Below the pieces are notes generated by a model that saw only the letters and a program-made list of their open reading frames with translations, did no database searches and was not told the DNA's origin. Shown in pieces: positions 1 to 48,844 of a stretch of 64,000 bases of DNA. Source of the DNA: Prorocentrum cordatum (lineage: Eukaryota). The stretch covers positions 1-64,000 of the forward strand of contig CAUYUJ010000137.1 in assembly GCA_963575745.1 (NCBI GenBank), given 5' to 3'. The stretch's first letter is position 1. Each line of letters begins with the position of its first letter. The translations under genes and the position numbers were made by a program.

Positions 1-1
1 C

Positions 2-913
2 TGGACTTGCCTACAGTGCCGATTCCAATGCTGTCAGTACTGTGCTGCCCGCCGCAACACGCAGCTCGGCACCTCGGGCCAACCAACGTGCCCGGACTGC
101 TCCCTCAGCGGACTACGTGCACTTATGGACTGGTCCACGGACTACTCTTGCAACAGCTGGACGTGTGCGTACAGCACCGACAACAGGGACTCCGACACAT
201 GCTGCCTCTCCAGCAGATGCCCTCATCCGCCTCGTCCGCGCAGCCTGTTCGATGTCCGTGCCACAGGGATGCCTCCGCACATCCTCGCCCGCCAATACGG
301 CAACGCGCCAGCCCAGCACGACCTCAAGGAACCCCCCCGAGCGCCTTCAGGCCCCGGGGGGGGGCCTCCGCAACCAGGCCAAGCAAGATACCAGGGTCAA
401 TGGTATCTACCACCGAGGCCGCGTCGCGTCCTCAAGCAGGGATTGCCCGACGGCACGAGGCGGCCACCAGGGTTCACAGGAACGGGGATGCCTGAAGACC
501 CGTCTCCGGACCAACCGCTGTGGAAGGAAGGCTACGTGCTCTTCGGCCCTCACCAGGCCCTCAAGGAGGACTTCATCTTCAACAAAGCGGTCCGCCGACC
601 TTACTCCCTAGCCATCACCAACATGCACAGGGATCGTGTCACAGTCAGGGCCGTCTGCGAGTCTATCGCCGAGCGCATCCACACTACCCGCACGCGCTGG
701 CGAGATGTGGTACTGTACTGGGATGCCGAGGGCGGCCCTGGGCCTCAAGCTCTTGACTACGACATGCGCCTCTGTGACGCCATGGTGAGTCGTGCCACGA
801 CCGAAGCCGAGTTGAACCACGACCGCAGCAACCGTGGTAGCTTCTGTCTCTATGGACCAGCGCACCAGCGGGCTGTGAACATCACGGTGCTCCCCGAGCC
901 GCAGAACATTTGA
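2..913 (+). CDS. LINE A N-terminal/ORF1-like Cys-rich protein (partial, open from the window edge)
   Basis: The frame of ORF 125..913 is open from base 2: WTCLQCRFQCCQYC...TCPDC (multi-CxxC zinc finger), then WTCAYSTDNRDSDTCCLSSRC (degenerate RanBP2-type W-x-C...N...C pattern). Confidence 0.6.
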   Translation, partial: WTCLQCRFQCCQYCAARRNTQLGTSGQPTCPDCSLSGLRALMDWSTDYSCNSWTCAYSTDNRDSDTCCLSSRCPHPPRPRSLFDVRATGMPPHILARQYGNAPAQHDLKEPPRAPSGPGGGPPQPGQARYQGQWYLPPRPRRVLKQGLPDGTRRPPGFTGTGMPEDPSPDQPLWKEGYVLFGPHQALKEDFIFNKAVRRPYSLAITNMHRDRVTVRAVCESIAERIHTTRTRWRDVVLYWDAEGGPGPQALDYDMRLCDAMVSRATTEAELNHDRSNRGSFCLYGPAHQRAVNITVLPEPQNI

Positions 914-1637
914 CTTCGTGGAGCATGTACGGCGCTACTCACCCGTCGGGGAGACTTACCCAGACCATGCCTTCGAGCACGTCTATCAGGGCTGGCGGCG
1001 GCCCGACGTGCCGCCCATCCTCCCCGACACCCGCCCGCTCTCGAGAGCCGACCAGCAGCGCTACCAACAGCGCCAGCAGCGCACCCAGCAGCGCGACCAA
1101 CGCGACGCAGGTCAACCGAGCACGCCACGCAACCGCTCTCCCGCGCGCGTCCCGACAGGCGACAGCGCGGTGCACGGCGGGGGCGCCGCCTATCACCGTG
1201 GCCCCATTGGCGCCAGGCCCGCGGCGGCAGGAGCAGCCGCCTCCAGCTATGGCCACGCCCCCCACGCCAGGGTGCTCCCAAAAAACTAAAATAGCCAGGA
1301 GTGAAGAGAAGACCTAACAGTGTAAGAAAGGGCATGTGTGATGCCAGAAAATGAAGATAACACGGGCACCCCAAAGCAGAACGTAATAGTCAACACAAGA
1401 GGCAAGAGAGAGAACACAGCGGTCGTCCGAGCTACCGTTGCACACAGCAGGCGACAGGCTCCCCCAAGCCGTATTTTTCAAATGGTATGTCGGGGCGTCC
1501 ACGCGTGGCCGGGGGCACACTCACCCAGGCCGACGCGACAGCGAGCCGCCAAGCCAACCTGCCCGCAGATGGGTCCCCCCGGCGGCTTCAGCCCAGGGGG
1601 CTGCACCAAGCCGTGGCAGGACAGGGCGCCCTGAAGG

Positions 1638-4600
1638 ATGGCGCGAGGCGAACGTGCGTGCCTGGCAACCGCGCCAACACACGCCTCCGCCAAACGTGGC
1701 CGCAGCGCTGCGCCCTGCCCGGCAAAACCTGCCCCCCCTGAGCGCGAGCGGCAGCCGCTCGTCCCGCTCGTCCTCACGTACACCCAGGCGCACCACAGCG
1801 CCTCCCCGCGGCACAGCGAGGGTAGTGCCCATCACGTCAGCCCCCGCCCTGACGCCGTCGACCCTGACCAGGCTGCAGCCTCGGCGGCGGGCGGCACAGG
1901 CGGCTCCCGCCAGCCCAGCCCAACACCCAGCGCAGCGCCGATCCGCTCCCCGAGCAGGGCGGACTCTGCGCGCGCTAACGCCCAGGTGGCCTCGCCACGT
2001 GACCGCCACACGGGCGGGCGCGTCCCGCGCAGCCGGTCCTACAGCCGCCACAGCTCGCGCAAGCCCCCTGGGAGCTCCACGAGCTCGCCGCCTTGCGAGA
2101 CTCAGGCCGACGGCCAAGCCTCCGAGGTGGTGCCACGTTTCGGTGCCAGCGCCATCGAACCTGGCCAGGTCGACCTCGAGCCGACGCCGTCCACGGACCA
2201 GGAGCTGCCACCGCCCACCCGCGTTGTCGTCGCCTTCGACGAAGCGCCGACCTTCGACCCCTACAAGCACAAGTACTCCGTCAAGGGCCTCGCGGCGGGC
2301 TTCGGCGGCGGCTCACCGCTGCCCCCTCTGAGCCACGGCGGCGGCCCCGCCACCCCAGCCGCTGCCGCGGCAGCGGCGGCCCCGCGTGGAGTCAGCCCTG
2401 TCCGCAACGCGTGCCTCACGACAGCGGGCATGGACGAGGCCCAGCGCCAGGCCACCGACCGCGCCGCTCGCCACGCCCAGCTGGTGGCTGACGTGCTGGC
2501 AGGGCGTGCGCCGCCGCAGCCACAGGGCCCACCGCCCGAGGCGAGCGCGGAGGGTGCACACGAACAAGCTGTTCCAGCTGATGCTGCTCATCACGGCACT
2601 GACGGGGCGGGCGCGCCGCCGCAGGACGGACCAGCGGTGTCGCGTGCGCAGTATTTGCGCGCGCGCAGCGCCGCTGCCGCGCCGAGCTGCCGCCGCTGGT
2701 TTGCTTTTGCTCTTGAGCTCGGCAGGACGGATCGAGGAGTCGCCTCCCTCTCCCCCTGCCGCCGTCTCACCTCTCCTCCCTCCGTCCCCCACGGTACAGG
2801 AGTGAGGAGGATTTTTCGAGGCAGTTTTGCCGACGTTTATGAACCCCCCCCGGCGCAGCGTCGACCATGCCTTGCCTATACTGTTGGCCCGACGGCGGCT
2901 TCAGCCCCGTCCAAGCCAATCTGCCGCGACGCCATGAGCTCCTACTGTGGCCAAGCCTTCCACCTGGGTGACGGCCAGGCTGCCCTCCACCGCGCGGGGC
3001 GTGCTAACCCCAGCTCCACCGACGGAGATGGGCCAGGTCGCTCCATCCATCTCGTCAGCCTCAACATCACAAGTCTCCCAGCGAACTGGCCAACCATCAC
3101 CGCTCTAGGTGTCGACCACAACGCCGCAGTCATAGCACTGCAAGAGACCCGACATGCCAAGCCTACCAGGCAAGCCATCGCTACCAACGCCGCCAATCCA
3201 CACCATGGAGGATACCAGGCCAGTCTGGGACCTGACCTGGATCTGGCGCGTGCTCAGCGCAAAGCTGCTCACGGTGGCACGGACCACACGGTCGAGGGCA
3301 ACACCGGCGCTTCGGGTGGGGTCGCCATCCTCTCTAAGGACGCCATCGTCGACTCCACCGTCGACGACATTGCGACCTGTATCGCCACCCTCAAGGCCAA
3401 GAAACGATGGCACGAGGCCTTCCTCCCGCTCTGTACCCAGCACCGCCGCAGGCGACGACGAAACAACCACGGTCCCGCTGGGATCTACATTGCGAGCCTC
3501 TACGGGGTCGCTGGAGGGGACGGCACCGATTTGTTTCGGCTTGCTGATTGCGCCGCCGCGAGGGTCGGCTCAGCCCCGTATTTCATTTGCATGGACGCCA
3601 ACACGCACATCGACGACAATCCACATCTGCTGCACATGATGCAGCACGGATGGTTTAACGTCGCTGAAGGCACACCAGACCACACCATGCACACATATGG
3701 CAATATCCCTGACTGGGACCGCGTCACCAAGTGCCCCCGCACTCCGCGCATCGATTATATCATCGCCAACCAATCTGCGCGATCCCTTGTCACCGACTTC
3801 TGCTATCTGCGTGACTTGCCAGCGAAGTCCCATGTTGGCCTGCAGGTCACACTCGACCTTAGCCGCCTCGATCACACGGCCCCACGCCTTCTGGCCCCCG
3901 CGCCTTACCCTCCAAACGACGGAGCTCATGAGGACCACGAACTTCAGGCATTAGGGACCCTCATCGCAGGACGATACCATGACCGCATGGAGCAGGCTGA
4001 CACACGCGACGATGTGGAACGCATGTTCGCCCTGGCAAACGAGGCCAGCCATGAATACCATCTCACCCGGCTGCGCGACCTGCCACCTCCACCGCCAGAC
4101 CACCCCAAAAAGAAGCCCCCTACCATGCACGGGCTCACACCCACGTTCGAAGAGCGACCCGCCGTCCCCCGCGCCTTTCCCACCTACGGAGCTTCCACGA
4201 TTCACATGAACCGCCATCGCAAGCTCCATCGGCAACTTTGCGAGCTTCGCTTCATCGGACAGCACCATCATATCGACTGCCGTGCTATCCCGCCGTACCT
4301 GGCGCAACGCATCGACTGCACGTGGACCGCGGCCCGCCTTCTCTGCCACAAGCTGCGCCCCACGGCCCTCCTGGCCTTTCCTGATGCCTGGGCCCCCGAC
4401 GTGCCAGCACCACGCGGAGAGCACCTAGATCGTCTGATCCAAAACCTAGACTCGGAGCTGGCGCGACGTGCAAACCGAGCCAAAGCTGAACGCATCAAGA
4501 TCTGGGCTGAAGGTGTCCGCGAGCCAAGCGGGCGAAAGGCGGCCATATACGCACGGGCTGCCGATGGCTCGCCCACGGCGTATCTCCGCACGCCTACCAC

Positions 4601-7600
4601 TCCCGACGATGCACAGCTCCACTGCGACACCACCGCCTTCAACCCTGACCAAGCTAGCACGGACGATAGTGACGCCGACACCGACGCCGGCGGCTTCAGC
4701 CCCAGCGACGGTAGTTCGCTCGACACGGACAACGACGACGGCCACACTCGTGGCCCACCACCTGCCCCGGTTCCCGACGCCCTCCCCGCCAACGCTATTG
4801 TTGCCAACACCAAAGACATGCTTAAGCTCATGGTCGACACCTGGGAGCCCATCTTGGGCAGGTACCGCGCTCGCGCGGGCCATGACGCCGAAGCTAAGCC
4901 GACGTGGGCGGACTTCTACGACGAATACCGACAAGAGCTGCCTACGCCATCACCAGCAGCCCCTTTCCACCTCACCGACGACCAACTCATCCACTTCATT
5001 CGCACCCGTTCACCGCGCCGCGCGGGGGGACTCGACGGCTGGACAACTAAGGAGGCTAAGGAGTTACCCGACGACATCCTTCGCCTTTTCGCCAGTGTCT
5101 TACGTGCTATGCAACGCACTGGCACCATCCCCGAGCCCCCCCTACACGTGCCAAACCCGTGCCTCCGAAAAGGCCGAGGGGAACTCCCGACGGACCAACG
5201 ACTTCTCTCGGTTCTTTCCGCGTGGATGTATGCGTGGGAAGCGCCGGCCTACCGTAGCCTCACGACCTGGCGGCAAGGATGGACCCATGCCACGAGCTTC
5301 GGCGCTGTTCCCAAAGCCACCATTGGGGATGTCAGCACCTCTCTCGCCCTGCGCATCGAACACGCCAGGACTTTACTCCTCCCCTTAGCTGGAGCTGCCC
5401 TTGACCGACAGAAGTGCTTCGACTACCTCATCACGGACATCTGTCTAAACCTTGCGCTGCACGCGGGGTGTCCACAAGACATCGTTAATGTCCGCCGAAA
5501 TTTCTACAGACACCACAAACGCTACATCCGCATGAACGGAGCGTACTCTAAGGACCTGGCCAGGACTAACGGTCACCTCCAGGGAAGCTCGTGGTCCCTG
5601 GACGACATCAAGCTGCTCATGTGCGTGTGGACAAAGAGGCAGCACCGATACGTTCCTCGATCACTCAGCACTACCTTTGTTGACGACAGCAACTCCACTA
5701 CCCACACCGCGTCTGAGCTGCAGAAATCTCTAGACGAAACCGCCAAGTTTGATCGACTCTCAGGTCAACGCATTCACCCTGGTAAAGTGGCAGGGTGGGC
5801 GCTCACCGACGAGCTTCACGCCGCCGTTACCCAGCTCACTCTGGCGGAACGGCCCTTACGTGTGGTCGATTCCTTCAAGCTCGTCGGGAGTTACATCAAC
5901 GCCGAGGCAGCGCCGGCTCCAGCCGCGCTTAACCTCACGGCCACCGCAGACGCCCGTGTGCGGAGGGCGACTATCCGCCTGCTGCGCATTGGCAAGCTCC
6001 CGTCGCCGATGCTTATCAAGGCGCGGCACGCCCGATCCCTGGCCGCCAGCGTCTGCACCACGGGCACCGACATCCAAGCACCATCAGGCCCAGCCAAGAC
6101 TGCCTCCAACCACGCCCTCAAGGCGGCTATCCGCCCCAAGGGGAACAAGTGGGTCGAGTTCTGGACTCTCATGGCCGTGTGCGTGCCGGGACACGCCCTT
6201 GAGATCGACGCCATCACGCAGCGTGAAGCATTCCTGTGCCTGCGGCGACAGGTTAACCGCGACGTTACACTCTGCGGGCTCGCCATAGACCTCCAACACC
6301 ACGTCCAGACCCTGTTTGGTGGAGGACCCGTCGGACGACTCGTCCAGTCGCTCCAGCAGCTCCGATGGACCTGGCCCACATTTGGCATCATGTACGACGA
6401 CTGGGGCTGCCCGATCAGCTGGCTGAATCTACCCCAAAACGCCTTCCTGCACATGCTGCGGGCCTCACAACGCAGGGCATTTCTGCGGAGGATCAATCCA
6501 CGGCGACACGACCTTGGCTACCTCGCCTCTGTCAGACAGGGCCTTGACCTCTTCGCCAGCACGTGGCTCGCGCGAACTAAAGGAGCAGCCAAATGCACTG
6601 CCTGGCAGCTGGCGCTCCTCCTGAACTACCTGTCGGGCGGGGACCACACCCAACAGCGACGATCCCGATCCAACACGTCGGCAGACCCCAGCCCCATGTG
6701 CAGCTACTGCGACGAGGAAGAGGAAACTCAGGAGCACACTGTCCGCGACTGTAAGTGCTGGGCCCGAGAAAGAGTTCCTCTCACCACCCTCATCAGTGAC
6801 GACCAGTGGGCCCGTCTTCCGCCGCACACAAGACACTGCGGGCTCTTCGACGAAGACCCAGCCCTCCTCGACCTGCAGGCCGACCTCGCCAGGGACCCGC
6901 TGCCACAGCCCATTCCGCGGCCCTCCCCTGATGGTGATCCTGCGGCTTCAGCCCAGGACACCTACACCACCTACCTTGACTACGACACTGTTTGGACATG
7001 GGTCTATGCTGCCACGGACGGTGCGTGCACCAACCAAGCCATCCCATTGCTAGCACGAGCGGGTTACGGCGTCTACTACGGCATCGACCACCGCATGAAC
7101 TACAGTGCACGCGTTCACGGCCTAACGCAGAACGCCCAGGTTGCGGAGACCCTCGCCATTGTCCACCTTACGGCTTGTGCCGAACGGCCAGTGCACGTTT
7201 TCGTGGACAACCAGGCGGTGGTCGATGGGTTCCAAAGCATCATCGACGGACATCCAGCGCCGCAGGGCACGCACGCGGAGCTCTGGGAAAAGATCCACCG
7301 ATGTGTTATGGCCAAGCCCAACATTTTTCGCGTCGAAAAAATCGCCAGCCACCTGGGAGACCTGGGCATCGACCTTGGGCTCATCGGGCCCATCGCGGAG
7401 GAGTTCAACCGTCAGGCCGACGCCCTTGCCACAGCGGCGGCACGCACGCACACCCTCCCCGACGACATTGTTGAAGCTGCCAAAACACGACATCGCCAAG
7501 CGACCGTGCTTCATGGGGTCGCTGTCGCTATCTACGAGCGCAGACACCGTACTCTGCCGCTCCACACCGCAGGGCTGGGTTTACAGCAGCGGAACTCAGC

Positions 7601-7751
7601 AAAATGGAACCGAACCCCCTGCTGTCGGACCAGGCACCACCCGCGGCTGGACCATACATCCCGCAGAACCCGGATGAGCTCTGGGCCGAGGCCCAACGGG
7701 CGATGCTCGACGAACAGGAGGACGACCCGTTCGGCTTCGGCGGGGGATTAG
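1638..7751 (+). CDS. LINE polyprotein: AP endonuclease + reverse transcriptase + Zn finger + RNase H
   Basis: APE motifs SLNITS, IALQETR, GGVAIL, CMDAN, RIDYII, SHVGL; RT motifs GGLDGW, RLLSVL, LDRQKCFD, GHLQGSSWS, FVDD; CSYC..HTVRDC; RNase H motifs ATDGAC, AQVAET, VDN, KIASH, NRQADALA. True start uncertain. Confidence 0.95.
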   Translation: MARGERACLATAPTHASAKRGRSAAPCPAKPAPPERERQPLVPLVLTYTQAHHSASPRHSEGSAHHVSPRPDAVDPDQAAASAAGGTGGSRQPSPTPSAAPIRSPSRADSARANAQVASPRDRHTGGRVPRSRSYSRHSSRKPPGSSTSSPPCETQADGQASEVVPRFGASAIEPGQVDLEPTPSTDQELPPPTRVVVAFDEAPTFDPYKHKYSVKGLAAGFGGGSPLPPLSHGGGPATPAAAAAAAAPRGVSPVRNACLTTAGMDEAQRQATDRAARHAQLVADVLAGRAPPQPQGPPPEASAEGAHEQAVPADAAHHGTDGAGAPPQDGPAVSRAQYLRARSAAAAPSCRRWFAFALELGRTDRGVASLSPCRRLTSPPSVPHGTGVRRIFRGSFADVYEPPPAQRRPCLAYTVGPTAASAPSKPICRDAMSSYCGQAFHLGDGQAALHRAGRANPSSTDGDGPGRSIHLVSLNITSLPANWPTITALGVDHNAAVIALQETRHAKPTRQAIATNAANPHHGGYQASLGPDLDLARAQRKAAHGGTDHTVEGNTGASGGVAILSKDAIVDSTVDDIATCIATLKAKKRWHEAFLPLCTQHRRRRRRNNHGPAGIYIASLYGVAGGDGTDLFRLADCAAARVGSAPYFICMDANTHIDDNPHLLHMMQHGWFNVAEGTPDHTMHTYGNIPDWDRVTKCPRTPRIDYIIANQSARSLVTDFCYLRDLPAKSHVGLQVTLDLSRLDHTAPRLLAPAPYPPNDGAHEDHELQALGTLIAGRYHDRMEQADTRDDVERMFALANEASHEYHLTRLRDLPPPPPDHPKKKPPTMHGLTPTFEERPAVPRAFPTYGASTIHMNRHRKLHRQLCELRFIGQHHHIDCRAIPPYLAQRIDCTWTAARLLCHKLRPTALLAFPDAWAPDVPAPRGEHLDRLIQNLDSELARRANRAKAERIKIWAEGVREPSGRKAAIYARAADGSPTAYLRTPTTPDDAQLHCDTTAFNPDQASTDDSDADTDAGGFSPSDGSSLDTDNDDGHTRGPPPAPVPDALPANAIVANTKDMLKLMVDTWEPILGRYRARAGHDAEAKPTWADFYDEYRQELPTPSPAAPFHLTDDQLIHFIRTRSPRRAGGLDGWTTKEAKELPDDILRLFASVLRAMQRTGTIPEPPLHVPNPCLRKGRGELPTDQRLLSVLSAWMYAWEAPAYRSLTTWRQGWTHATSFGAVPKATIGDVSTSLALRIEHARTLLLPLAGAALDRQKCFDYLITDICLNLALHAGCPQDIVNVRRNFYRHHKRYIRMNGAYSKDLARTNGHLQGSSWSLDDIKLLMCVWTKRQHRYVPRSLSTTFVDDSNSTTHTASELQKSLDETAKFDRLSGQRIHPGKVAGWALTDELHAAVTQLTLAERPLRVVDSFKLVGSYINAEAAPAPAALNLTATADARVRRATIRLLRIGKLPSPMLIKARHARSLAASVCTTGTDIQAPSGPAKTASNHALKAAIRPKGNKWVEFWTLMAVCVPGHALEIDAITQREAFLCLRRQVNRDVTLCGLAIDLQHHVQTLFGGGPVGRLVQSLQQLRWTWPTFGIMYDDWGCPISWLNLPQNAFLHMLRASQRRAFLRRINPRRHDLGYLASVRQGLDLFASTWLARTKGAAKCTAWQLALLLNYLSGGDHTQQRRSRSNTSADPSPMCSYCDEEEETQEHTVRDCKCWARERVPLTTLISDDQWARLPPHTRHCGLFDEDPALLDLQADLARDPLPQPIPRPSPDGDPAASAQDTYTTYLDYDTVWTWVYAATDGACTNQAIPLLARAGYGVYYGIDHRMNYSARVHGLTQNAQVAETLAIVHLTACAERPVHVFVDNQAVVDGFQSIIDGHPAPQGTHAELWEKIHRCVMAKPNIFRVEKIASHLGDLGIDLGLIGPIAEEFNRQADALATAAARTHTLPDDIVEAAKTRHRQATVLHGVAVAIYERRHRTLPLHTAGLGLQQRNSAKWNRTPCCRTRHHPRLDHTSRRTRMSSGPRPNGRCSTNRRTTRSASAGD

Positions 7752-8599
7752 ACTTCTTGGACGACGGCCCAGCCCGCGCCAACCCTGCCCCGTCGGGCAG
7801 CCTCTCGACGCCCACCTCGACTCCGCCACCGAGAGCGACATCGCACCCACATGATGACGTCGCTCACCGTCAAGACGCCGACGAGGACCTCTATGATCCC
7901 CTCGGATTGAGTGGCAGCATAGACGACGCCCCGCCGACACCCCACGCTGCCGACGATGCCGCTCCATCGAGACGCCACCCGACCACGCGGCCGACCTCCG
8001 AGCCCCCGCACGGCATCATGATTGGTCCCACCGTGCCACCCACCCCGTCCCCCCACCAGCGCCAGCCCGCGGGGGCGGCTCTAGCCCCCCCGCAGGGCAC
8101 CGAGCCAGTCAGGCCGTCGCACCCCGTCCACGCTTTCACTGTTGCTGGGTGCGAGGATGCGGCTCTTCCGTCCTCACGGGGCGTGGCCCTAGCGGCTTCA
8201 GCCCTGGGACCGCGTGTTACCCTCCAGTCGCCTCTGAAGGGCGACGGCCGCCAGCACACGGAGCGCCGCACTGCGCTGGTCCACCACCTGGCCAGGCGCA
8301 CCGATGACCTCGTCCCTGCCACGAGGCCCGCGGCCGCAGGCACTGAGCAGCCGCCCCTCGCCGACCGCGAAACCGAGCTGTCCCAGTCTATGGCCGCTCT
8401 TCAGCAGAGGTGCGCTGCTCTCGCCGCCGACCTTGCCGCTGCTCAAGCCCGTCAAGGCCCTCTGCTCCAGCGCCTCCACCGCGCCGGTCGTGCCTTCGCC
8501 GAGCTGCTTACACCCTTGCCCGATGGTGCTGCGCCGCCACTCACCCTCCATGCTATGCTGTCATCGCTCCGCGGCGCTCCGCCTGAAGCCCCGCGCTAA
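7604..8599 (+). CDS. Overlapping C-terminal ORF of LINE A, probably a frameshifted continuation of the polyprotein
   Basis: 331 aa, acidic DDPFGFGGGLD patch and a helical end; the frame is open upstream of the ATG (AGFTAAELSKMEPNP). Confidence 0.5.
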   Translation: MEPNPLLSDQAPPAAGPYIPQNPDELWAEAQRAMLDEQEDDPFGFGGGLDFLDDGPARANPAPSGSLSTPTSTPPPRATSHPHDDVAHRQDADEDLYDPLGLSGSIDDAPPTPHAADDAAPSRRHPTTRPTSEPPHGIMIGPTVPPTPSPHQRQPAGAALAPPQGTEPVRPSHPVHAFTVAGCEDAALPSSRGVALAASALGPRVTLQSPLKGDGRQHTERRTALVHHLARRTDDLVPATRPAAAGTEQPPLADRETELSQSMAALQQRCAALAADLAAAQARQGPLLQRLHRAGRAFAELLTPLPDGAAPPLTLHAMLSSLRGAPPEAPR

Positions 8600-8974
8600 T
8601 CTCCGCCATTCTGCCTGCCCGTGTGCACGCGTGGCCCCGCGTCCACGGTGTCAGGGCGCGGGGGCGGGGGGTGCCCCGTCCCTGCGCGCCGCGTTGCGGC
8701 CAAGCGCCCAACTGGCGGTCTGCCAAGCCGCCTAGCCACGTGTCAGCACGTCGCCTTTCTTGTTGGGGCCTTCTTCGTCACGCGGTCTGACACGTGAGAT
8801 CTTCACTGTCTGTCCGCCGTCTGTAGCGTCAGTCGCATTGCGCCGGGGGAGGGGGTTTGTTGCCCGCCCTCGTATCTCAAGGCTGCACCGCCGCAAATAG
8901 TGCATGGCGAGTTGTCGCACCGCAGTGCGCCTCGCGGACGGACCCTGGTCCGCCTACTTGTCCGGTCCGGTCTC

Positions 8975-10440
<1,466 letters not shown>

Positions 10441-10589
10441 CTGGCTTCTGACGGAGTCTGGGTTAGGTGAGCCTGAGTGTGGGTGAGTCTGAGTATGGGT
10501 ACGTCTGTGTGTACCTGACTCTGAAGAAATGAATCTGAGTGTGAGTGAGCTTGTGTATGAGTGAGTCTGGGTGCGAGTCTGAATCCCAA

Positions 10590-11585
10590 TGGTGCCCCTG
10601 GCAGCGTCTGGCGACTAGGAGGCCCGGGTCGACTCCTCTTTGGGAAGCCAAAATGTTGCCACTGGCAGCGTTTGGTGACTATGAAGCCCCTGGTGGGCCC
10701 CCCCTGGGGCTCCCAAATGATGCCCCTGGCAGCGTTTTGCGACCATGAGGCTCTCAAGAGAGACATGTTGGGGAGGCCAAACGGCAATTTTAGCTGAGAC
10801 GTCCCACCAAAATCGGCGCGAACGGGCTCGTGAGATCAGCCAGGGTGGCTCCCCCTTGGGGCCCCCAAATGATGCCCCTGGCAGCGTTTTGTGGCCATGA
10901 GGCTCTCAAGAGAGACATGTTGGGGAGGCCAAACGGCAATTTTAGCTGAGACGTCCCACCAAAATCGGCGCGAACGGGCTCGTGAGATCAAGCGCGACAA
11001 GGGTGCTCCTCACTCCCACCCATCCCCCTCCTCGCTCATTTCCACCTCCGCTCTCCGCCCCCCTCAAGTCCCCCCCCCAACCTCACTCCCCACGCCCCTC
11101 CCCTCCCTCACGCCCCGCCCCCCCCCCACTCCCCCTCCTAGCTCCCACCCCTCCTTCGCTCCTCCTTCACTACCCCCCCCCCCCATCCACCCCACTCCCC
11201 TCCCCCTCCCTTCCTCCCCCCATGGGGCTACCCAAATGATAGCCCCGGCAGCGTTTGCCGACCCATGAGGCGGCTCTCAAGAGAGACACATGTTGGGGGA
11301 GGCCAAAGAACGCAATTTTCAGCTGAGACGTCCGCAACCCAGCATCGGCGCGCAAACGGCTCCGAGACCAGCCAGGGTGGCTCCCCCTTGGGCTTACTCC
11401 CCAATGATGCCCCTGGCAGCGTTTTGTGACCATGAGGCTCTCAAGAGAGACATGTCGGGGAGGCCAAACGGCAATTTTAGCTGAGACGTCCCACCAAAAT
11501 CGGCGCGAACGGGCTCGTGAGATCAGCCAGGGTGGCTCCCCCTTGGGGCTCCCAAATGATGCCCCTGGCAGCGTTTTGTGATCAT
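10590..11585. repeat. 152-bp tandem repeat interrupted by a C-rich stretch
   Basis: GATGCCCCTGGCAGCGTTTTG recurs at 10719/10871 and 11406/11558 (period 152). Confidence 0.9.
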
Positions 11586-19338: not shown

Positions 19339-21302
19339 GCTTTGATAACCGCGCTTCGTGGGCTGGTGCCCGGGGGCCGATTTCTGCCGTCTGGCTGTCT
19401 TTGCTCAGGGTGGGGTGGGGCATGGTCTCCCCCACGGGGAGTTGGTCGACCTCCTCCAGTTTTGCCCGTGGGCCGTGCGCAGGTTTGTTGAGGAAGGAAT
19501 TCGTCGGTGGCAGTCGGCGCGCATCTTGGAGCACCTCCCTAATGGTTCGCAGGCGTCGTGATGGAGGCGAGCCATGCGCCGCTCGGTGCTCAAAATACGC
19601 GACGCGAGCAGGAGGGGAGCTCTGAGGGCCCTCTGGGCCGCTGGCGTGTGGACACCAGTTCGTCTACATTCTATCCAGCTCCGCCCGACCCCCGAATGTT
19701 TTGTCTGCCGTCAGTGCCCGGGGACCGAGGCCCACCAGTGGTTTGGATGCCCCGTGGTCCTGGATGTCCCCGAAGATGAGCGGCCGCCCGATGATGTCCT
19801 GGAGCATCGGGAGGCCATGATTTCGAATCTCAGCAGCCCGCTCGACGGAATCGAGACGTTCTATCTTAGCTTTGGGCTGCCGCCCTTGCCGCCTTTTCCC
19901 GCTGCTCCTGCGAGCTCGCAACCAGTTCTTGGGTGGGGGGATTGGCGCGGAGTGTGGGGGCGGAAGGTGTACACGGACGGGTCTGGGTTGGCCTCCTCGC
20001 TCCCAGGTCTCACTCGATGCGGTTGGGCGGTCGTGGAGCTCGACGTGTCGGGGATCATCCTCCGAGCAGTTTTTGGAGCGCTCCCAGGCCCAGTCCAGAC
20101 TGTCCCTAGGGCTGAATACTATGCTTGCCTGATGGCGGTCAAGTGTGCTGGTTGTTCGGTGCACATCGTCTCTGACCATCTGTCTGCTGTCAAGACGGGC
20201 TCAGCATGGGGGCCCCATAACGAGTCGGCTCGCTCCCGGCATGCTTCGGTCTGGAGGTCCATGCATGTTGCCAGTGGTAGCTCGGACGAGCACCCTACGT
20301 TTCAGTGGGTGCCCGCACATCGTTCTGCTGAAGATGTACTGGGCGATTTGTCCGCTGATTTTCGGGATTTTGTTGGCAATGAGTGGGCTGACCACTTTGC
20401 GAAAAAAGGCGCTAGGTCTCATATGGTTGCCCAGGTGCTCCAGGACGTCCATCGGCAGCGTTTGGTCGAGGCCCAGAAGGACGCCCAAGTGTTTTCATGG
20501 ATGGCCCGCACAGTGGCACGGAGTGTCGATGAGCTCCAGCCGCGCGCTGGTGCACCAACGCCCAGACGAGCACCCCCTCCTGCCCCAATTGTGGCCCTTG
20601 AGACCCATGAGTTCATGGTTTGCGACCGGCTTTCTGAACATAGTTGTCGCGTCTGCAACCATTGGGCTCGGACCCCTGCCTCCTTGAAGGCGCTGCGCGC
20701 GCGTCCCTGCGCGCCCTCCCCTTTGCAGCGTGCCTCGGCGGCCAGGTACTCCAATCTCACTCCTGAGACCTACCGCCACCCCTCGGCCGCAGTTGCCGAA
20801 GCCGTGCGTGCTGCCCGTGACCTCGAGGAGGCGTCTGGCCCCGAGGCAGGGCGCGTCGAGGGGCAGCGGGTTGATGTCGTCGCCGTCGGGGGGGTCGACG
20901 GGGAGGTGGATTTGTGCAAGGAATTGGACCACGTTGCCGAGAGGTTCGGGTCGGTGGTCGTCTGTCTTGCGTGTGGTGCCTATTCCGTTGCTGGCGGCCG
21001 CGACAAGAAGTTGCAGCAAGCCAGATGCAAAGGGCATTCGGACGTTGCGTCCACTCGCGCCAACGAGGAGATGCATATCTCTCGTGCGATGCGCGGTTTT
21101 CATCCTCGCACTGGTGCCTCTTGCACCTAATGCCACCCTCGACGCCTAGTCTCCTCTGTTGGCTTGGCCGATGAGGTGGGGACGCAGCTGTTGAGGAAGA
21201 ACTGTGCTTTGCGGCGAGCTTCATGCCCTGTAGTGCAGATTATGTGTTTCACGCCGCTGGGGCGGGTCCGTTAGCTCGGACTCGCGCTTCCATCGCTCGG
21301 TA
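19339..21302 (+). mobile_element. 5'-truncated LINE (LINE B) flanked by (CCT)n on both sides
   Basis: Post-RT motif GPISAVWLSLLRVGW, then Zn finger, RNase H and 3' UTR; (CCT)n at about 19272-19338 and 21303-21378. Confidence 0.85.
19574..21130 (+). CDS. LINE B C-terminal region: Zn finger + RNase H + two H..CxxC..C fingers
   Basis: CFVC..HQWFGC; YTDGSG, QTVPRAE, IVSD, WVPAH, GNEWADHFAK; CRVC and CLACGAY repeats. Confidence 0.88.
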   Translation: MRRSVLKIRDASRRGALRALWAAGVWTPVRLHSIQLRPTPECFVCRQCPGTEAHQWFGCPVVLDVPEDERPPDDVLEHREAMISNLSSPLDGIETFYLSFGLPPLPPFPAAPASSQPVLGWGDWRGVWGRKVYTDGSGLASSLPGLTRCGWAVVELDVSGIILRAVFGALPGPVQTVPRAEYYACLMAVKCAGCSVHIVSDHLSAVKTGSAWGPHNESARSRHASVWRSMHVASGSSDEHPTFQWVPAHRSAEDVLGDLSADFRDFVGNEWADHFAKKGARSHMVAQVLQDVHRQRLVEAQKDAQVFSWMARTVARSVDELQPRAGAPTPRRAPPPAPIVALETHEFMVCDRLSEHSCRVCNHWARTPASLKALRARPCAPSPLQRASAARYSNLTPETYRHPSAAVAEAVRAARDLEEASGPEAGRVEGQRVDVVAVGGVDGEVDLCKELDHVAERFGSVVVCLACGAYSVAGGRDKKLQQARCKGHSDVASTRANEEMHISRAMRGFHPRTGASCT

Positions 21303-22929: not shown

Positions 22930-24095
22930 ATCCCACCAGCCCTTTGGGCGTGAGTGGTTTAGAGAGCCCGCTCTGTTCTCAACCCCCCTTCTTCCCCTTC
23001 GGGGAGGGGTTTACCCCTCCCCCTACCCCCTCCCCCTGGACCTGGACAGGGGGCCCGGCGGGTCGTCAGGGGGGTAAATTTCGACTCCTGGGAGGGCCAA
23101 AAAACGACGACCCTCACGAGAATTCTGGCCCCGACGGGGGGACGGAGATAGGCCCCTCTGCTCTTCCTTGAAGCCAAAATCATTGATTGTACTACGGTTT
23201 TGGCCCCATTTTGGCGTCCTGAGGGGGCCGCGCTCATCTTCCTTCATAGCAAAATCATTGATTTTACGAAGGTTTTGGGCTCATGTTGTCCTTCTCAGGG
23301 GGCAGCTCTCATTTGCGCTTCTGAGGAGGTCGCTAGAGGCCCCAAGATGGCCCCAAGAGGCCCCCAGGAGGCTCCCAAGAGGCCTCCAAGAGGCCCCCAA
23401 GAGGCCCCCAAGCGGCCCCAAGAGGCCCCCAGAGGCCCCCAAGAGGCCCCCAAGAGGCCTCAAGAGGCCCCAAGAGGCCCCCAAGAGGCTCCCCAGAGGC
23501 GCCCAAGAGGCCCCCAAGAGGCCCCAAGAGGCTCCAAGAGGCCCCCAAGAGGCCCCACGAGGAGCCTCGAACGACCCGAACGCCTCACACCACGAGGAGC
23601 CCGAACGACTCACACCCGGACGAGGGGCCCGAACGACTCACACCACGAAGAGCCCGAACGACTCACACCACAAGGAGGGGCCCGAACGACTCACACCAGG
23701 ACGAGGCGCCCGAACGACTCACACCACGAGGAGCCCGAACGACTCACACCAGGACGCGGGCCCCGAACGACTCACACCACGAGGAGCCCGAACGACTCAC
23801 ACCAGGAGGAGGAGCCCGAACGACTCACACCAGGACGAAGGGCCCGAACAACTCACACCACGAGAAGCCCGAACGACTCACGCCAGGACGAAGAGCCCGA
23901 ACGACTCAAACCACGACGAAGAGCCCGAACGACTCACACCAGGAAGAAGGGCCCGAACGACTCACACCAGGACGAGAGGCCCGGAGATATGCGGGGGCAG
24001 GCGGAAACACGCCTGAAAAACACGACTGTCGGCATGCTTCGCAAGAGTTGCTGTTTTGAGATGGGCTGGTGGGGATACGCGAAGCGTGAAGAATT
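22930..24095 (+). mobile_element. Non-autonomous Helitron2/Helentron-like element, copy 1
   Basis: 5' ATCCCACCAGCCC pairs with subterminal GGGCTGGTGGGGAT (24063-24076); 5' hairpin 23001-23022; 3' ACGCGAAGCGT hairpin then GAAGAATT; interior made of GGCCCCAAGA and CCCGAACGACTCACACC repeats; second copy at 39541. Confidence 0.75.
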
Positions 24096-25841: not shown

Positions 25842-26499
25842 CACCCTGCGAAATGCTTTAGAAATCATGGGTTAAGAAATTCATAGTCTCAGAACTTGAA
25901 ATCTAACCCAACATTTCTATTCAAATCTTAGGAATTACATTGAAACGTTAAGAATAATCGAGACTCTGGCCGAAAATGTAAGTTTTCTTAAGCATCGCCT
26001 AAGGTGTACTGAAGAAGGGCTCGGGGACCGCGGGAGCAAACGTCCGCCTCCAGACAGAGCTCCCTGCGTCGACCCCGTGGGCACGTGAGCTCGGCTCGGC
26101 GCCCGTGGAGACGTGCCGCCCGCGGAGGCCAGGAGGTCGCGTGCCCGTGCGCCCCCCCTCCTGGCCCCCAGAAGGAGGAGGAGGCGGAGGAGGAGAAGCT
26201 AGGAGGAGGAGGAGGAGGAGGAGGAGGAGGAGGAGGAGGAGAAGGAGGAGGAGGAGGAGGAGGAGGAGGCGGAGAAGGAAGAGCTAGGAGGAGGCGGAGG
26301 AGGAGCTAGCAGGAGGAGGAGGAGGAGATCAGGAGATCAGGCGCGTGAGGGCGCCGTCTGACTAGCAAACAGCGCCTCGTGGGACCTCAGAGGAGGAGGA
26401 GGCGGAGGAGGAGGAGGCAGGCCCTGGAAAGGAGGGACGAGAGGGAGGAGGAGGCGGAGGCGGAGGAGGAGGCGGAGGAGGAGGAGGAGGAGGAGAAGG

Positions 26500-30939: not shown

Positions 30940-31265
30940 CCGCTCCGTGCGCGGGGGGCAAAGGGAGGGGGAGGGGGGAGGAGAAGGAGGAGGGAGGAGG
31001 AGGAGGGAGGGGGACGAGGAGGGGGGAGCATAAGCTATGTGCGCTCGCGTCATATCTGACATCCTACCCCTCCCTCCCATCCCTTACCATGGCGTAGATC
31101 CCCTCTCTACTCGCACAGTCGGATGTTGAGCAGGGCAATGATCCCGAACGGGTATGCGATGCATTGTAGAGCACGGCATGGCATGGCGTAGAAGAGCACC
31201 GCAAAGCGTAATATCAACCTCACATTGCATTGCATGCCGTGGCATGGCACGGGAAATGACGCCAA

Positions 31266-31746: not shown

Positions 31747-31768
31747 CTCGAGCCAAAATGGCTACGGA
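31747..31768 (-). other. Dinoflagellate spliced-leader relic
   Basis: TCCGTAGCCATTTTGGCTCGAG, 21/22 match to DCCGTAGCCATTTTGGCTCAAG, same strand as and upstream of the hydrolase. Confidence 0.93.
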
Positions 31769-39415: not shown

Positions 39416-39540
39416 CAGGCAAGGCAAGAGAAGACAAGAAGGAGGGGGCGGGAGGCAGGAGGCGTGAGGAGGAGGAGGCAAGGCAAGGCAACTCTGGGGT
39501 GGTATCACATGTGCCTACCGACTTACACATTGGAGACAAA

Positions 39541-44654: not shown

Positions 44655-44753
<99 letters not shown>

Positions 44754-48822: not shown

Positions 48823-48844
48823 CTTGAACCACAATGGCCACGGA
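48823..48844 (-). other. Dinoflagellate spliced-leader relic
   Basis: TCCGTGGCCATTGTGGTTCAAG, 19/22 match to the SL, 89 nt upstream of the S1 gene ATG. Confidence 0.88.

What the first reader, a model, noticed from the sequence alone, without database searches (positions are those of the whole stretch)
1575..8210. Five copies of a bulged GGC-UUCA-GCC hairpin with covarying lower stems along LINE A
Seen: GCGGCTTCAGCCC at 1582, 2895, 4690, 6942 and 8192, all on the sense strand and in more than one reading frame (AASA versus GGFSP). The flanks differ in each copy yet still pair, leaving an invariant bulged C: GACGG/CCGTC, TCCTG/CAGGA, CCTAG/CTGGG, CGCCGG/CCAGCG, CCCCCGG/CAGGGGG (the last two with one mismatch). 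Known: a bulge plus short stem plus tetraloop is the architecture of protein-binding RNA hairpins such as the MS2 operator. Inference: dispersed cis-acting RNP-assembly, localisation or packaging signals selected at the nucleic-acid level, spaced 1.2-2.3 kb apart.
Basis: partly seen in the sequence, partly recalled or inferred. Interest (0 to 1): 0.78.

Follow-up and report, generated by a model that had tools for sequence, protein, structure and literature searches.

The report
Reiterated bulged RNA hairpin in a LINE
A very abundant retrotransposon of a GC-rich aquatic protist carries at least eight copies of one small bulged hairpin along its sense strand, gained one after another during its evolution, which points to a repeated nucleic-acid signal whose function is still unproven.

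Summary
GCGGCTTCAGCCC occurs 5 times, all on the + strand (expected 0.01). Three variant copies (13-mers starting at 341, 5913 and 8075) bring the family to 8, all on the sense strand of one non-LTR retrotransposon; none lies in the other 55 kb.

The flanks differ between copies yet pair. All 5 exact copies have at least 4 of 5 flank pairs, against 6.3% of background sites. Over the 8 copies, 90.3% of cells pair and 6 of 9 pairs show changes on both sides.

Comparison with related protein fragments shows the hairpins are of different ages:
- hp2895 and hp4690 are compatible with relatives down to about 51-65% identity. They are conserved islands in variable linkers, and one compensatory A-T to G-C change is fixed by the amino acids.
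- hp5913 is possible only in an 85% relative.
- hp6942 is a 4-5 residue insertion missing in 9 of 9 relatives.

So this is a selected nucleic-acid motif that was gained repeatedly, not a peptide motif or chance. The proposed function, protein-binding RNA sites for assembling the element's RNA-protein particle or for template recognition, is inferred and not shown. No RNA data, host genome or relatives' DNA beyond two short contigs were available.

The parts
1..8991 (+). Non-LTR retrotransposon ('LINE A'), cut at its 5' side by the window edge and very high copy in public runs
   Evidence: Logan contigs of 4 of 4 runs cover all 30 bins of 1-9000, with summed depth about 1e4 in two runs. No second copy lies in the window.
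2..1294 (+). Upstream open frame (ORF1-like, or the N-terminal part of one giant ORF), with an in-frame TGA at 911-913. It contains hp341.
   Evidence: No Pfam family was found. Depth is like the rest of the element.
1281..1500 (+). A-rich segment present in only a minority of copies
   Evidence: Depth dips to about 1,550 against 7,000-11,000 elsewhere, and loose ends at 1280 in 3 runs continue with other sequence.
1635..7751 (+). Main ORF (2038 aa): N-terminal low-complexity region, AP-type endonuclease, reverse transcriptase (FVDD), CCHC motif, RNase H
   Evidence: Pfam Exo_endo_phos scores 23.6 bits against a cutoff of 24.5. Relatives carry PF00078, PF00075 and PF03372.
7475..8599 (+). C-terminal continuation of the main ORF, out of frame in this copy because of a 1-nt deletion after 7561
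   Evidence: 'C put in behind 7561' accounts for 100%, 86% and 100% of depth in runs X2, X4 and X14, and 28% in X1. Frame arithmetic: 1635 mod 3 = 0 and 7475 mod 3 = 2.
332..362 (+). hp341: CCCCCCCGAG-C-GCC-TTCA-GGC-CCCGGGGGGG. The middle pair of the upper stem is flipped; there is one A-C mismatch.
   Evidence: 33.3 bits; the minimum-energy fold is the bulged hairpin, -25.1 kcal/mol.
1576..1600 (+). hp1582: exact core, lower stem CCCCC(G)G/C(A)GGGGG
   Evidence: 35.4 bits. The minimum-energy fold of the 33-mer is an alternative structure.
2891..2911 (+). hp2895: GACGG-C-GGC-TTCA-GCC-CCGTC, just upstream of the endonuclease domain
   Evidence: (35.5 bits). Compatible with relatives P0048, P0047 and P0059.
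4685..4707 (+). hp4690: CGCCGG-C-GGC-TTCA-GCC-CCAGCG, in the acidic linker between endonuclease and RT. This is the only copy in another codon phase (GGFSP).
   Evidence: (37 bits). The 96%-identical copy L004 has G for A4704, which gives a perfect stem. GGFSP is invariant in 4 relatives.
5909..5929 (+). hp5913: AGCGC-C-GGC-TCCA-GCC-GCGCT, after the RT core. The closing pair is C-G, and either C of the CC could be the bulged one.
   Evidence: (17.9 bits). Compatible with P0032 (loop TTCA); impossible in P0033 and P0028.
6938..6958 (+). hp6942: TCCTG-C-GGC-TTCA-GCC-CAGGA, between the CCHC motif and RNase H
   Evidence: 33.7 bits; z = -4.25. The residues are missing in 9 of 9 relatives.
8068..8094 (+). 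hp8075: GCGGGGG-C-GGC-TCTA-GCC-CCCCCGC. Other copies of the family have TCCA.
   Evidence: (33.6 bits). T8082C is near-fixed in 4 of 4 runs.
8188..8208 (+). hp8192: CCTAG-C-GGC-TTCA-GCC-CTGGG, with one T-G wobble
   Evidence: (34.3 bits).
8992..10434 (+). (CT)n array that follows the element's 3' end
   Evidence: Tandem Repeats Finder gives period 2 and 734 copies. Loose ends at 8964 and 8970 in other copies also run into CT repeats.

Best explanation
The motif is a small sense-strand hairpin: a lower stem of at least 5 bp of free sequence, a one-base 5' bulge, a 3-bp G/C upper stem and a U-Y-Y-A tetraloop. A highly successful non-LTR retrotransposon of a GC-rich aquatic protist has installed it at least eight times along its more than 9 kb RNA. 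The host is probably a dinoflagellate.

The copies sit in poorly conserved linkers at the junctions of the protein domains. They mostly encode an innocuous Ala-Ala-Ser-Ala, so they cost the protein little.

I read them as reiterated, sequence-specific binding sites on the element's RNA for a protein, most simply one encoded by the element. Candidates are the region between endonuclease and RT, as in L2-type LINEs, the ORF1-like product, or the CCHC region. Under this reading the apical part (loop, upper stem, bulge, closing pair) is what the protein recognises, and the lower stem only holds it in shape. Many sites along the RNA would favour loading of the element's own proteins onto its own transcript (assembly in cis, template choice, protection), and so raise its retrotransposition.

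Shown here:
- the motif, its strand bias and its covariation
- the conservation of the older copies
- the stepwise gain of copies

Inferred:
- that it acts as RNA
- that a protein binds it
- what the binding achieves

I put about 0.85 on 'a real, selected nucleic-acid structure' and 0.45 on the protein-binding reading as a whole.
For: **Non-random core.** 5 exact copies against 0.01 expected, all on the + strand.

**Paired flanks.** 5 of 5 exact copies have at least 4 of 5 flank pairs, against 6.3% background.

**Covariation.** Over 8 copies, 90.3% of cells pair, 6 of 9 pairs change on both sides, and 0 of 500 shuffles reach the covariation score. Controls with the 3' partner slid by 1-3 columns pair only 33-53%.

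**Specificity.**
- A covariance model gives 33-37 bits to its 7 training copies. The best hit elsewhere in the 64-kb window is 21.9 bits.
- In a 6.5-Mb assembly that holds fragments of the element, the only hit at E <= 0.01 is the hairpin in the element fragment, on the sense strand. Only 150 of 2696 candidates were scored.

**Nucleotide level rather than peptide level.**
- The same 13-mer encodes AASA in 4 copies and GGFSP in one.
- 4 of 5 AASA peptides use GCG GCT TCA GCC. From the ORF's codon usage this set is expected at about 0.002, my product of the frequencies.

**Selection over time.**
- GGFSP is invariant (5 of 5 columns) in the window and 4 relatives, against 2 of 20 and 3 of 20 invariant columns on either side.
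- The hp2895 peptide is kept in 3 of 3 relatives of 51-71% identity. In P0059 the amino acids force G-C where the window has A-T.
- L004 DNA shows that the window's C-A mismatch in hp4690 is derived from a perfect stem.

**Stepwise gain.**
- hp5913 is impossible in P0033 and P0028 and missing in P0002, but compatible with P0032.
- hp6942 is missing in 9 of 9 relatives.

**Folding.** 7 of 8 copies fold as the bulged hairpin.

**Precedent.** In zebrafish L2 LINEs the ORF2 region between endonuclease and RT binds a cognate stem-loop, with the stem recognised generally and the loop specifically (PMC4176376, abstract read).
Against: - No binding, RNA structure or expression data exist here; no RNA run was listed.
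- Sequence alone cannot tell sense RNA from DNA or antisense. Non-Watson-Crick cells do not discriminate: one T-G wobble favours the + strand, and two mismatches (A-C, C-A) would be wobbles on the - strand.
- hp6942 looks like an insertion made of the core plus the reverse complement of the 4 bases upstream. That could also come from a mutational fold-back process.
- Three of the eight copies (341, 5913, 8075) were picked partly because they fold, which inflates the 8-copy statistics. The 5-copy test is free of this bias.
- Comparison with relatives rests on protein fragments, so third codon positions are unknown. DNA of relatives was obtained for hp4690 only.
- hp1582 does not take the canonical fold as its minimum-energy structure.
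- The bulge base is not universal: A is forced in two relatives.
- The even spacing may simply mirror the domain architecture.
Confidence: 0.45

Rival explanations
1. Host-directed RNA signal. The hairpins are read by the host's RNA machinery rather than by the element's own proteins. They could be processing or spliced-leader trans-splice acceptor sites (every copy presents C-U-Y-Y-A-G across the loop and stem), nuclear export or stability elements, or decoys against silencing.
For: - All 8 copies keep YAG at the junction of the loop and the 3' stem (alignment).
- The genome carries a 20-of-21 match to the dinoflagellate spliced leader upstream of a gene, so trans-splicing is expected in this host.
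- In-frame ATG codons follow hp1582 (1638) and hp2895 (2934) within 27-44 nt.
Against: - Splice acceptors are normally single-stranded, whereas here the AG is half buried in a G/C stem.
- No joint or molecule start at a hairpin appears among the rows shown, but these are DNA contigs and 1053 loose ends were not shown.
- None of the non-element sequence in the window carries the motif.
Confidence: 0.2
2. Neutral mutational by-product. The core is copied to new places, and a local inverted copy of the flank is added, by template switching or fold-back synthesis of the reverse transcriptase or of DNA replication. The hairpins persist only where the protein tolerates them.
For: - hp6942 is a 4-5 residue insertion absent in 9 of 9 relatives. 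At DNA level it can be written as the core plus CAGG, the reverse complement of the upstream CCTG.
- The copies lie in linkers, and 7 of 8 are in the most innocuous codon phase, as a tolerance filter would give.
Against: - hp5913 arose in a linker of unchanged length by replacement of about 6 residues, not by insertion.
- The old copies are conserved islands in hypervariable linkers.
- One pair changed on both sides between lineages.
- The core is intact in 5 of 8 sites of a copy that carries private mutations at several dozen positions elsewhere.
Confidence: 0.15
3. DNA-level structure. The hairpin forms in single-stranded cDNA or in genomic DNA. It would then serve second-strand priming, or recognition by the element's nuclease or RNase H, or by a host DNA-binding factor.
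For: - The element encodes RNase H and an endonuclease.
- The A-C mismatch of hp341 and the C-A mismatch of hp4690 would be G-T wobbles on the opposite strand.
- A bacterial REP-like repeat cluster with the same core shows that such a hairpin can be a DNA-level repeat.
Against: - The C-A mismatch of hp4690 is derived from C-G.
- hp8192 has a T-G wobble on the + strand, which would be A-C on the other strand.
- The strict single orientation fits a transcript as well as it fits cDNA.
- No joints or ends at the hairpins appear in the rows shown.
Confidence: 0.1
4. Peptide-level motif: a repeated linker or protease-site sequence (AASA) conserved for the protein's sake.
For: - 7 of 8 copies are in one codon phase, and 4 encode AASA.
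- All copies lie at domain junctions.
Against: - hp4690 carries the same 13-mer in another phase (GGFSP), and that peptide is the conserved one in its relatives.
- Synonymous positions are identical in 4 of 5 AASA sites.
- A peptide motif cannot explain flanks that are complementary to each other.
Confidence: 0.02

Closest known systems
3' tail stem-loop of stringent-type LINEs (zebrafish ZfL2-1/ZfL2-2, eel UnaL2), bound by the ORF2 region between endonuclease and RT
   Same: A short stem-loop on the sense RNA of a non-LTR retrotransposon that ends in a simple-repeat tail. In that system the stem is recognised generally and the loop specifically (PMC4176376, abstract read). This matches a conserved apex on a free lower stem.
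   Different: That signal is a single copy in the 3' UTR next to the tail. Here there are at least 8 copies spread over more than 8 kb, all inside open reading frames, and the nearest lies about 790 nt upstream of the (CT)n array. Binding is untested here.
Dispersed packaging signals of single-stranded RNA viruses (MS2, STNV, parechovirus, HBV pregenome)
   Same: Multiple dispersed stem-loops sharing one short recognition motif on otherwise variable stems, many of them inside coding sequence (PMC6281560, abstract read).
   Different: Those bind a capsid protein and direct shell assembly. A LINE has no capsid, and the motif here is much more uniform (5 of 8 cores identical) than viral packaging signals usually are (the last point is recalled, not from a call).
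Phage coat-protein operator hairpins (MS2, Q-beta, PP7)
   Same: A stem, a single bulged base on the 5' strand, a short upper stem and a small loop. These features are recalled, not from a call.
   Different: The bulge is C rather than A, the upper stem is 3 bp with a UUCA/UCCA loop, there is no coat protein, and the host is a eukaryote. This is an analogy of architecture only.
Iron-responsive element
   Same: A C bulge on the 5' strand above a lower stem of free sequence (recalled).
   Different: The IRE has a 5-bp upper stem and a CAGUGN hexaloop. No Rfam family matched any hairpin.
Bacterial REP/BIME-type repeated palindromes
   Same: A bacterial contig (L003) holds a cluster of hairpins GCCCGG-C-GGC-TTCA/TCTA/TTTA-GCC-CCGGGC, with the identical core and C bulge.
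   Different: Those are whole-unit copies with identical lower stems, in both orientations, in an intergenic gap between dapF and an isochorismatase gene. In the LINE the lower stems all differ, the copies lie in open reading frames, and all are on one strand. The shared core is most likely a consequence of searching for it.

Membership tests
Non-LTR retrotransposon (LINE) - the carrier | AP-type endonuclease domain | tested here: inconclusive
   Pfam Exo_endo_phos E = 4.9e-05, 23.6 bits, just under the 24.5-bit cutoff. The distant relative P0004 carries PF03372.
Non-LTR retrotransposon (LINE) - the carrier | Reverse transcriptase, optionally with RNase H | tested here: met
   An FVDD motif lies in the ORF. 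Relatives P0003 and P0004 carry PF00078. Close fragments P0005, P0009 and P0010 carry PF00075. Pfam did not report RVT_1 or RNase_H on the window protein itself at E <= 0.01.
Non-LTR retrotransposon (LINE) - the carrier | High copy number and a simple-repeat 3' tail | tested here: met
   46,632 contig pieces of run X1 were laid on the stretch. A (CT)n array follows at 8992-10434, and CT repeats follow the 3' end in other copies.
Stringent-LINE 3' tail stem-loop | Single stem-loop in the 3' UTR directly upstream of the tail repeats | tested here: not met
   The nearest copy (hp8192) ends about 790 nt before the (CT)n array and lies inside the ORF. No covariance-model hit above 10.1 bits lies in 8600-8990.
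Stringent-LINE 3' tail stem-loop | Specific binding by the cognate ORF2 tail-binding region | not testable with these tools
   Needs a binding assay.
Dispersed packaging signals | Several dispersed stem-loops that share a recognition motif on variable stems | tested here: met
   8 copies with a shared apex and differing lower stems.
Dispersed packaging signals | Cognate protein binds the motif and binding drives assembly | not testable with these tools
MS2/Q-beta/PP7 operator | Bulged adenine and a coat-protein partner (features recalled) | tested here: not met
   The bulge is C in 8 of 8 window copies. No coat protein is present, and the host is a eukaryote.
Iron-responsive element / histone 3' stem-loop / any Rfam family | Match to the curated covariance model | tested here: not met
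   No match at gathering score in the window. None of the 4 matches at E <= 10 in 1-9000 overlaps a hairpin.
REP/BIME-type mobile palindromes | Whole-unit copies, both orientations, extragenic | tested here: not met
   The lower stems differ in all 8 copies, all are on one strand, and all lie in open frames.

The most novel reading that the evidence does not exclude
A retrotransposon lineage has evolved the LINE counterpart of viral dispersed packaging signals. It has installed, one by one, the same protein-recognition hairpin at every domain junction of its giant ORF, roughly one per 1-1.8 kb. Its own proteins could then coat and select its own RNA in cis. This innovation would underlie the lineage's expansion to thousands of copies.
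Probability: 0.3. Interest if true: 0.8.

Novelty: new variant of a known kind. Interest (0 to 1): 0.68.

Why it matters
How LINE proteins choose their own RNA (cis-preference and template recognition) is only partly understood, and the known RNA signals are single 3'-terminal stem-loops. A LINE that carries eight or more copies of one small hairpin inside its coding sequence, gained stepwise, would be a natural experiment on this question.

The number of sites differs between subfamilies, so site number can be correlated with copy number and age. The motif is also small enough for direct binding and mutational tests.

It further shows how coding linkers can be recruited for nucleic-acid signals at little protein cost. 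It would give a ready-made hairpin and partner pair from a group, probably dinoflagellates, whose gene regulation is thought to be largely post-transcriptional (recalled).

I searched for papers combining dinoflagellate, LINE, retrotransposon and stem-loop, for the core sequence, for non-LTR retrotransposon stem-loop and bulge recognition and for dispersed packaging signals in retrotransposons. These listings showed no paper describing such a reiterated hairpin in a LINE. They cover only the open-access library held here.

Tried and rejected
**Data that were not available**
- No RNA holder was listed among 24 runs, so expression and RNA ends remain untested.
- Earlier findings of this scan returned nothing on 3 look-ups.

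**Searches for DNA of relatives**
- Metagenome contigs by protein alignment: 418 pattern hits, 0 confirmed.
- Genome contigs and viral contigs with an RT-core alignment: 51 and 18 pattern hits, 0 confirmed.
- A two-hairpin DNA pattern in metagenome contigs: 3 loci, none related to the element by tblastn or blastn. L001 and L002 are coding chance matches without paired flanks (13-21 bits). L003 is a bacterial repeat cluster.
- Only a search with P0029 found DNA: two short contigs, plus one 3'-end contig, in a metagenome-assembled genome labelled Myxococcales. They cover hp4690 only.

**Other searches**
- Rfam: no family matched.
- tRNA scan: none found.
- The protein atlas search with the neighbouring hydrolase gave no usable taxonomy.
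- A k-mer census showed that the other repeated 11-13-mers are tandem repeats.
- A generic scan for the same architecture with any sequence gave 71 hits on both strands. No other recurrent core appears more than twice, so the other retroelement fragments in the window have no analogous family of this architecture.

**Read laying**
- It printed only 40 of 1171 variant places, so per-site conservation of the hairpins among copies could not be read off.
- Among the rows shown, no joint or molecule end lies at a hairpin, except one low-depth contig that skips 4708-4801.

**Explanations considered and rejected**
- Chance, a peptide motif, iron-responsive element, histone stem-loop, tRNA T-arm, a transposon excision footprint (the flanks are inverted, not direct repeats) and REP-type mobile palindromes.

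Full report
**1. The observation**

GCGGCTTCAGCCC occurs five times in the 64-kb window, at 1582, 2895, 4690, 6942 and 8192, always on the + strand. Dinucleotide-preserving shuffles give 0.01 matches on average, and none of 100 reached five.

The 13-mer itself reads G-C-GGC-TTCA-GCC-C. That is a closing G-C pair, a bulged C, a 3-bp stem and a 4-base loop. In each copy the flanks differ but pair with each other (sequence, tabulated):
- hp1582: CCCCC(G)G/C(A)GGGGG
- hp2895: GACGG/CCGTC
- hp4690: CGC(C)GG/CC(A)GCG
- hp6942: TCCTG/CAGGA
- hp8192: CC(T)AG/CT(G)GG, where the bracketed pair is a wobble

All five have at least 4 of the first 5 flank positions paired. Treating every position of the element's + strand as a mock core, only 6.3% reach that level (10.2% on the - strand, 6.9% window-wide). 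Five out of five therefore has a probability of about 1e-6 (my multiplication).

**2. More copies, and specificity**

Allowing two mismatches gives 10 matches, 5 of them inexact. Two of these lie in the same element on the same strand and have the same architecture:
- hp341 is GCGCCTTCAGGCC. One upper pair is flipped from G-C to C-G, and 7 of 8 flank positions are paired.
- hp8075 is GCGGCTCTAGCCC, with a perfect 7-bp lower stem.

The other three inexact matches (13592+, 52059+, 60510-) did not reach the listing threshold in the covariance-model search.

I built a covariance model from these seven copies and ran it without filters over both strands of the window.
- The seven training copies scored 33.3-37 bits.
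- The next hits were 21.9 bits (58422, - strand), 18.5 bits and 17.9 bits.
- The 17.9-bit hit is an eighth copy in the element on the + strand: hp5913, AGCGC-C-GGC-TCCA-GCC-GCGCT, with the closing pair flipped to C-G and a TCCA loop.

I also scanned for the same architecture with any sequence. This found 71 sites on the two strands of the window. Of the 10 on the + strand of 1-9000, eight are this family, and no other core recurs more than twice.

The other repeated 11-13-mers of the window are tandem repeats.

Over the eight copies:
- 90.3% of the 72 pair cells are standard pairs.
- 6 of 9 pairs show changes on both sides.
- 0 of 500 shuffles reach the covariation score.
- Sliding the 3' partners by 1-3 columns drops pairing to 33-53% (the seven-copy version is).

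Three of the eight copies were recognised partly by their fold, so these figures are somewhat inflated. The five-copy flank test above is not affected.

As 33-nt RNAs, 7 of 8 fold into the bulged hairpin as their minimum-energy structure, with z-scores from -1.55 to -4.25. hp1582 prefers an alternative fold, with z = -0.88. Several stems continue outward past a mismatch.

No Rfam family matches any copy.

**3. The carrier**

The hairpins lie in one long element.
- The ORF 1635-7751 (2038 aa) has a borderline Pfam match to the endonuclease/exonuclease/phosphatase family, an FVDD reverse-transcriptase motif, a CCHC motif and an RNase H-like end.
- Distant relatives carry PF00078, PF00075 and PF03372, and close fragments carry PF00075.
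- A 1.4-kb (CT)n array follows the element.

Logan contigs of four public runs cover all of 1-9000, with summed depths near 1e4 in two runs. In one run 46,632 contig pieces were laid. The family is therefore very abundant, and the window begins inside the element.

Most contigs in three of the four runs have an extra C after 7561. By frame arithmetic this joins the main ORF to the 7475-8599 frame. Between 31% and 63% of the depth has an extra A after 1720, which joins the 1390-2331 frame to the main ORF. The family probably encodes one giant ORF running through hp1582 up to 8599, and this copy is a slightly broken one.

The stretch is held in part by marine, seawater, plankton, freshwater and urban metagenome runs as well as by four named (coded) organisms.

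A 20-of-21 match to the dinoflagellate spliced leader lies at 31747-31767 on the - strand (I recalled the motif from memory; 0 matches are expected by chance). It sits about 660 nt upstream of a - strand hydrolase ORF. This is the signature of a retroposed dinoflagellate gene, so the host is probably a dinoflagellate. I could not confirm this.

**4. Position in the protein and codon phase**

The hairpins sit at the junctions of the conserved blocks:
- hp2895: before the endonuclease
- hp4690: between endonuclease and RT
- hp5913: after the RT core
- hp6942: between the CCHC motif and RNase H
- hp8075 and hp8192: in the C-terminal extension
- hp341 and hp1582: in the upstream frames

These positions come from the alignment with the 47%-identical P0002 and.

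Seven of the eight 13-mers begin at codon position 1 of the longest open frame, giving AASA four times and APSG, PAPA and AALA once each. hp4690 is in another phase and gives GGFSP. The probability of 7 or more of 8 falling in any one phase is about 0.008 (my calculation).

Four of the five AASA peptides in these frames use exactly GCG GCT TCA GCC. From the ORF's codon usage that set has an expected frequency of about 0.002 (product of the frequencies).

The conserved unit is therefore the nucleotide string. The phase preference is best explained by the harmlessness of Ala/Ser in linkers.

**5. Evolution, the most informative result**

No DNA of diverged relatives could be found except two short contigs. 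Protein fragments of relatives at 45-94% identity were found, however.

*hp6942.* All 9 relatives that span the CCHC-RNase H linker lack 4-5 residues exactly where the window has AASA(Q). These are P0005, 6, 7, 9, 10, 12, 14, 21 and P0002, at 45-84% identity. P0013 was left out because it looks frameshifted there, and P0008 ends before the site. This hairpin is a recent insertion in the window's lineage.

*hp5913.*
- P0032 (85%) has AAPASAAL, which is compatible with every pair and implies the canonical TTCA loop.
- In P0033 (73%) and P0028/P0035 (62-67%) the linker has the same or nearly the same length, but 3 of the 8 pairs are impossible with any codon choice.
- P0002 has a 6-residue gap there.

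*hp4690.*
- GGFSP is invariant in the window, P0029, P0026, P0024 and P0041 (5 of 5 columns). Only 2 of 20 columns upstream and 3 of 20 downstream are invariant.
- The hairpin is impossible in P0025, and P0030 reads alike. The whole segment is missing in P0002.
- At DNA level, the 96%-identical copy L004 has G where the window has A4704, which gives a perfect 6-bp lower stem. The 90%-identical L005 is a decayed copy with loop GTCA and a broken stem.

*hp2895.*
- The peptide is kept in 3 of 3 relatives of 51-71% identity, although the sequence on either side is hardly alignable.
- In P0059 the amino acids (Ala for Thr, Pro for Ser) force G-C where the window has A-T. This is a compensatory change that does not depend on unknown third codon positions.
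- In P0047 and P0059, Glu replaces Ala, which forces the bulged base to be A. The bulge is kept, but its identity is not universal.
- Five more distant relatives (32-42% identity) show no such peptide (by eye).

Together these results give a nested series. hp2895 and hp4690 are old, hp5913 is younger and hp6942 is youngest. The lineage has been accumulating copies of the same motif and has kept the old ones. That is what selection for a nucleic-acid signal predicts. It is hard to reconcile with chance or with a peptide motif.

**6. What it most likely does**

The anatomy is that of a protein-recognition hairpin: a conserved apex on a free lower stem, one strand only, many copies along the replicative RNA.

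Two precedents fit this anatomy.
- In L2-type LINEs the ORF2 region between endonuclease and RT binds a cognate 3' stem-loop. The stem is recognised generally and the loop specifically (PMC4176376, abstract).
- In RNA viruses, many dispersed stem-loops that share one recognition motif cooperate in assembly (PMC6281560, abstract).

My best reading (0.45) is that these are reiterated binding sites on the sense RNA for an element-encoded protein, favouring RNA-protein particle assembly in cis or template choice.

The roughly even spacing is 1241, 1313, 1795, 1223, 1029, 1133 and then 117 nt. It would suit coverage of a long RNA, but it may only mirror the domain layout.

**7. Rivals**

- *Host-directed RNA signal (0.2).* This includes trans-splice acceptors, since all copies present C-U-Y-Y-A-G and in-frame ATGs follow two of them. 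However, the AG is half buried in the stem, and no non-element sequence in the window carries the motif.
- *Neutral mutational by-product of template switching or fold-back synthesis (0.15).* hp6942 can be written as the core plus the reverse complement of the four upstream bases. However, hp5913 arose without a length change, and the old copies are conserved and compensated.
- *DNA-level hairpin (0.1).* Sequence cannot exclude it.
- *Peptide motif (0.02) and chance (below 0.01).*

**8. A coincidence worth recording**

The two-hairpin pattern search in metagenome contigs returned a bacterial contig (L003). In the gap between dapF and an isochorismatase gene it has five hairpins in both orientations, of the form GCCCGG-C-GGC-(TTCA/TCTA/TTTA)-GCC-CCGGGC.

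This is a REP/BIME-like cluster with the same core and bulge but identical lower stems. It is unrelated to the LINE. Because the search specified the core, I regard the match as a selected coincidence.

**9. Limits**

- No host genome, no RNA data and almost no DNA of relatives were available.
- The comparisons with relatives rest on short protein fragments from assemblies. One of them (P0048) carries what I recognise, from memory, as sequencing-adapter translations at both ends.
- Two fragments are labelled as a green alga in one source, and two are binned in a MAG labelled Myxococcales. I take these labels as contamination or mis-binning, but I have not tested this.

**10. Verdict**

The finding is real, statistically strong and larger than reported. 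It is a selected structural motif of the element that was gained repeatedly. The proposed function is plausible but untested.

I rate it a new variant of a known kind: cis-acting protein-binding stem-loops of retroelements and RNA viruses, here reiterated inside a LINE's coding sequence. Interest: 0.68.

Noticed in passing
window 31747-31767 (-) and 48823-48843 (-): There is a 20-of-21 match and an 18-of-21 match to the dinoflagellate spliced-leader sequence (motif recalled from memory; 0 expected by chance). The first lies about 660 nt upstream of the intron-free alpha/beta-hydrolase ORF 29722-31083 (-). This suggests a retroposed gene and a dinoflagellate host.
   Followed up: partly
L003 9750-10130: A bacterial contig holds a REP/BIME-like cluster of five hairpins in both orientations, with the same core and C bulge (GCCCGG-C-GGC-TTCA/TCTA/TTTA-GCC-CCGGGC). 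It lies between dapF and an isochorismatase gene and is unrelated to the LINE.
   Followed up: partly
window 1-9000 (run comparison): Differences between this copy and other copies are strand-asymmetric. Per run, C>T occurs at 172-241 places and T>C at 158-190 places, against G>A at 65-98 and A>G at 60-76. This is more than the C/G skew of the strand explains and hints at a strand-specific deamination or repair bias on the element.
   Followed up: no
window 7561, 1720, 909-913: This copy differs from many others by single-base indels: C missing after 7561, A missing after 1720. It also has an in-frame TGA at 911-913. It is therefore a broken copy, and the family appears to encode one giant ORF.
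   Followed up: partly
window 7709-7879 and 2464-2568: Some copies in other runs carry a tandem duplication of about 105-171 nt (joints 7813/7878/7879 back to 7709-7711). Others carry a deletion of 96-102 nt (2464-2471 to 2567-2568).
   Followed up: no
window 8992-10434: A 1.4-kb imperfect (CT)n array lies directly after the element. Other copies also run into CT repeats, so it may be the element's tail repeat, greatly expanded.
   Followed up: partly
window 19562-21130 (+) and 26349-27572 (+): These are further retroelement fragments: an RNase H match (E = 4.5e-08) and a weak RVT_1 match. They are unrelated to LINE A by tblastn and carry no copies of the hairpin.
   Followed up: partly
window 49639-51025, 38400-39416, 23335-23983, 44077-44747: The window holds several long tandem arrays: 140/271-bp and 101-bp satellites, 11/28-bp minisatellites shared between 23.3-24.0 kb and 39.8-40.4 kb, and a (GTGCGT)n array.
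   Followed up: no
L004, L005, L008; proteins P0029, P0043, P0040, P0042: Fragments of this eukaryotic LINE are binned in a public MAG labelled Myxococcales, and they appear in a protein set labelled as a prasinophyte alga. This is likely mis-binning or contamination in public records.
   Followed up: no
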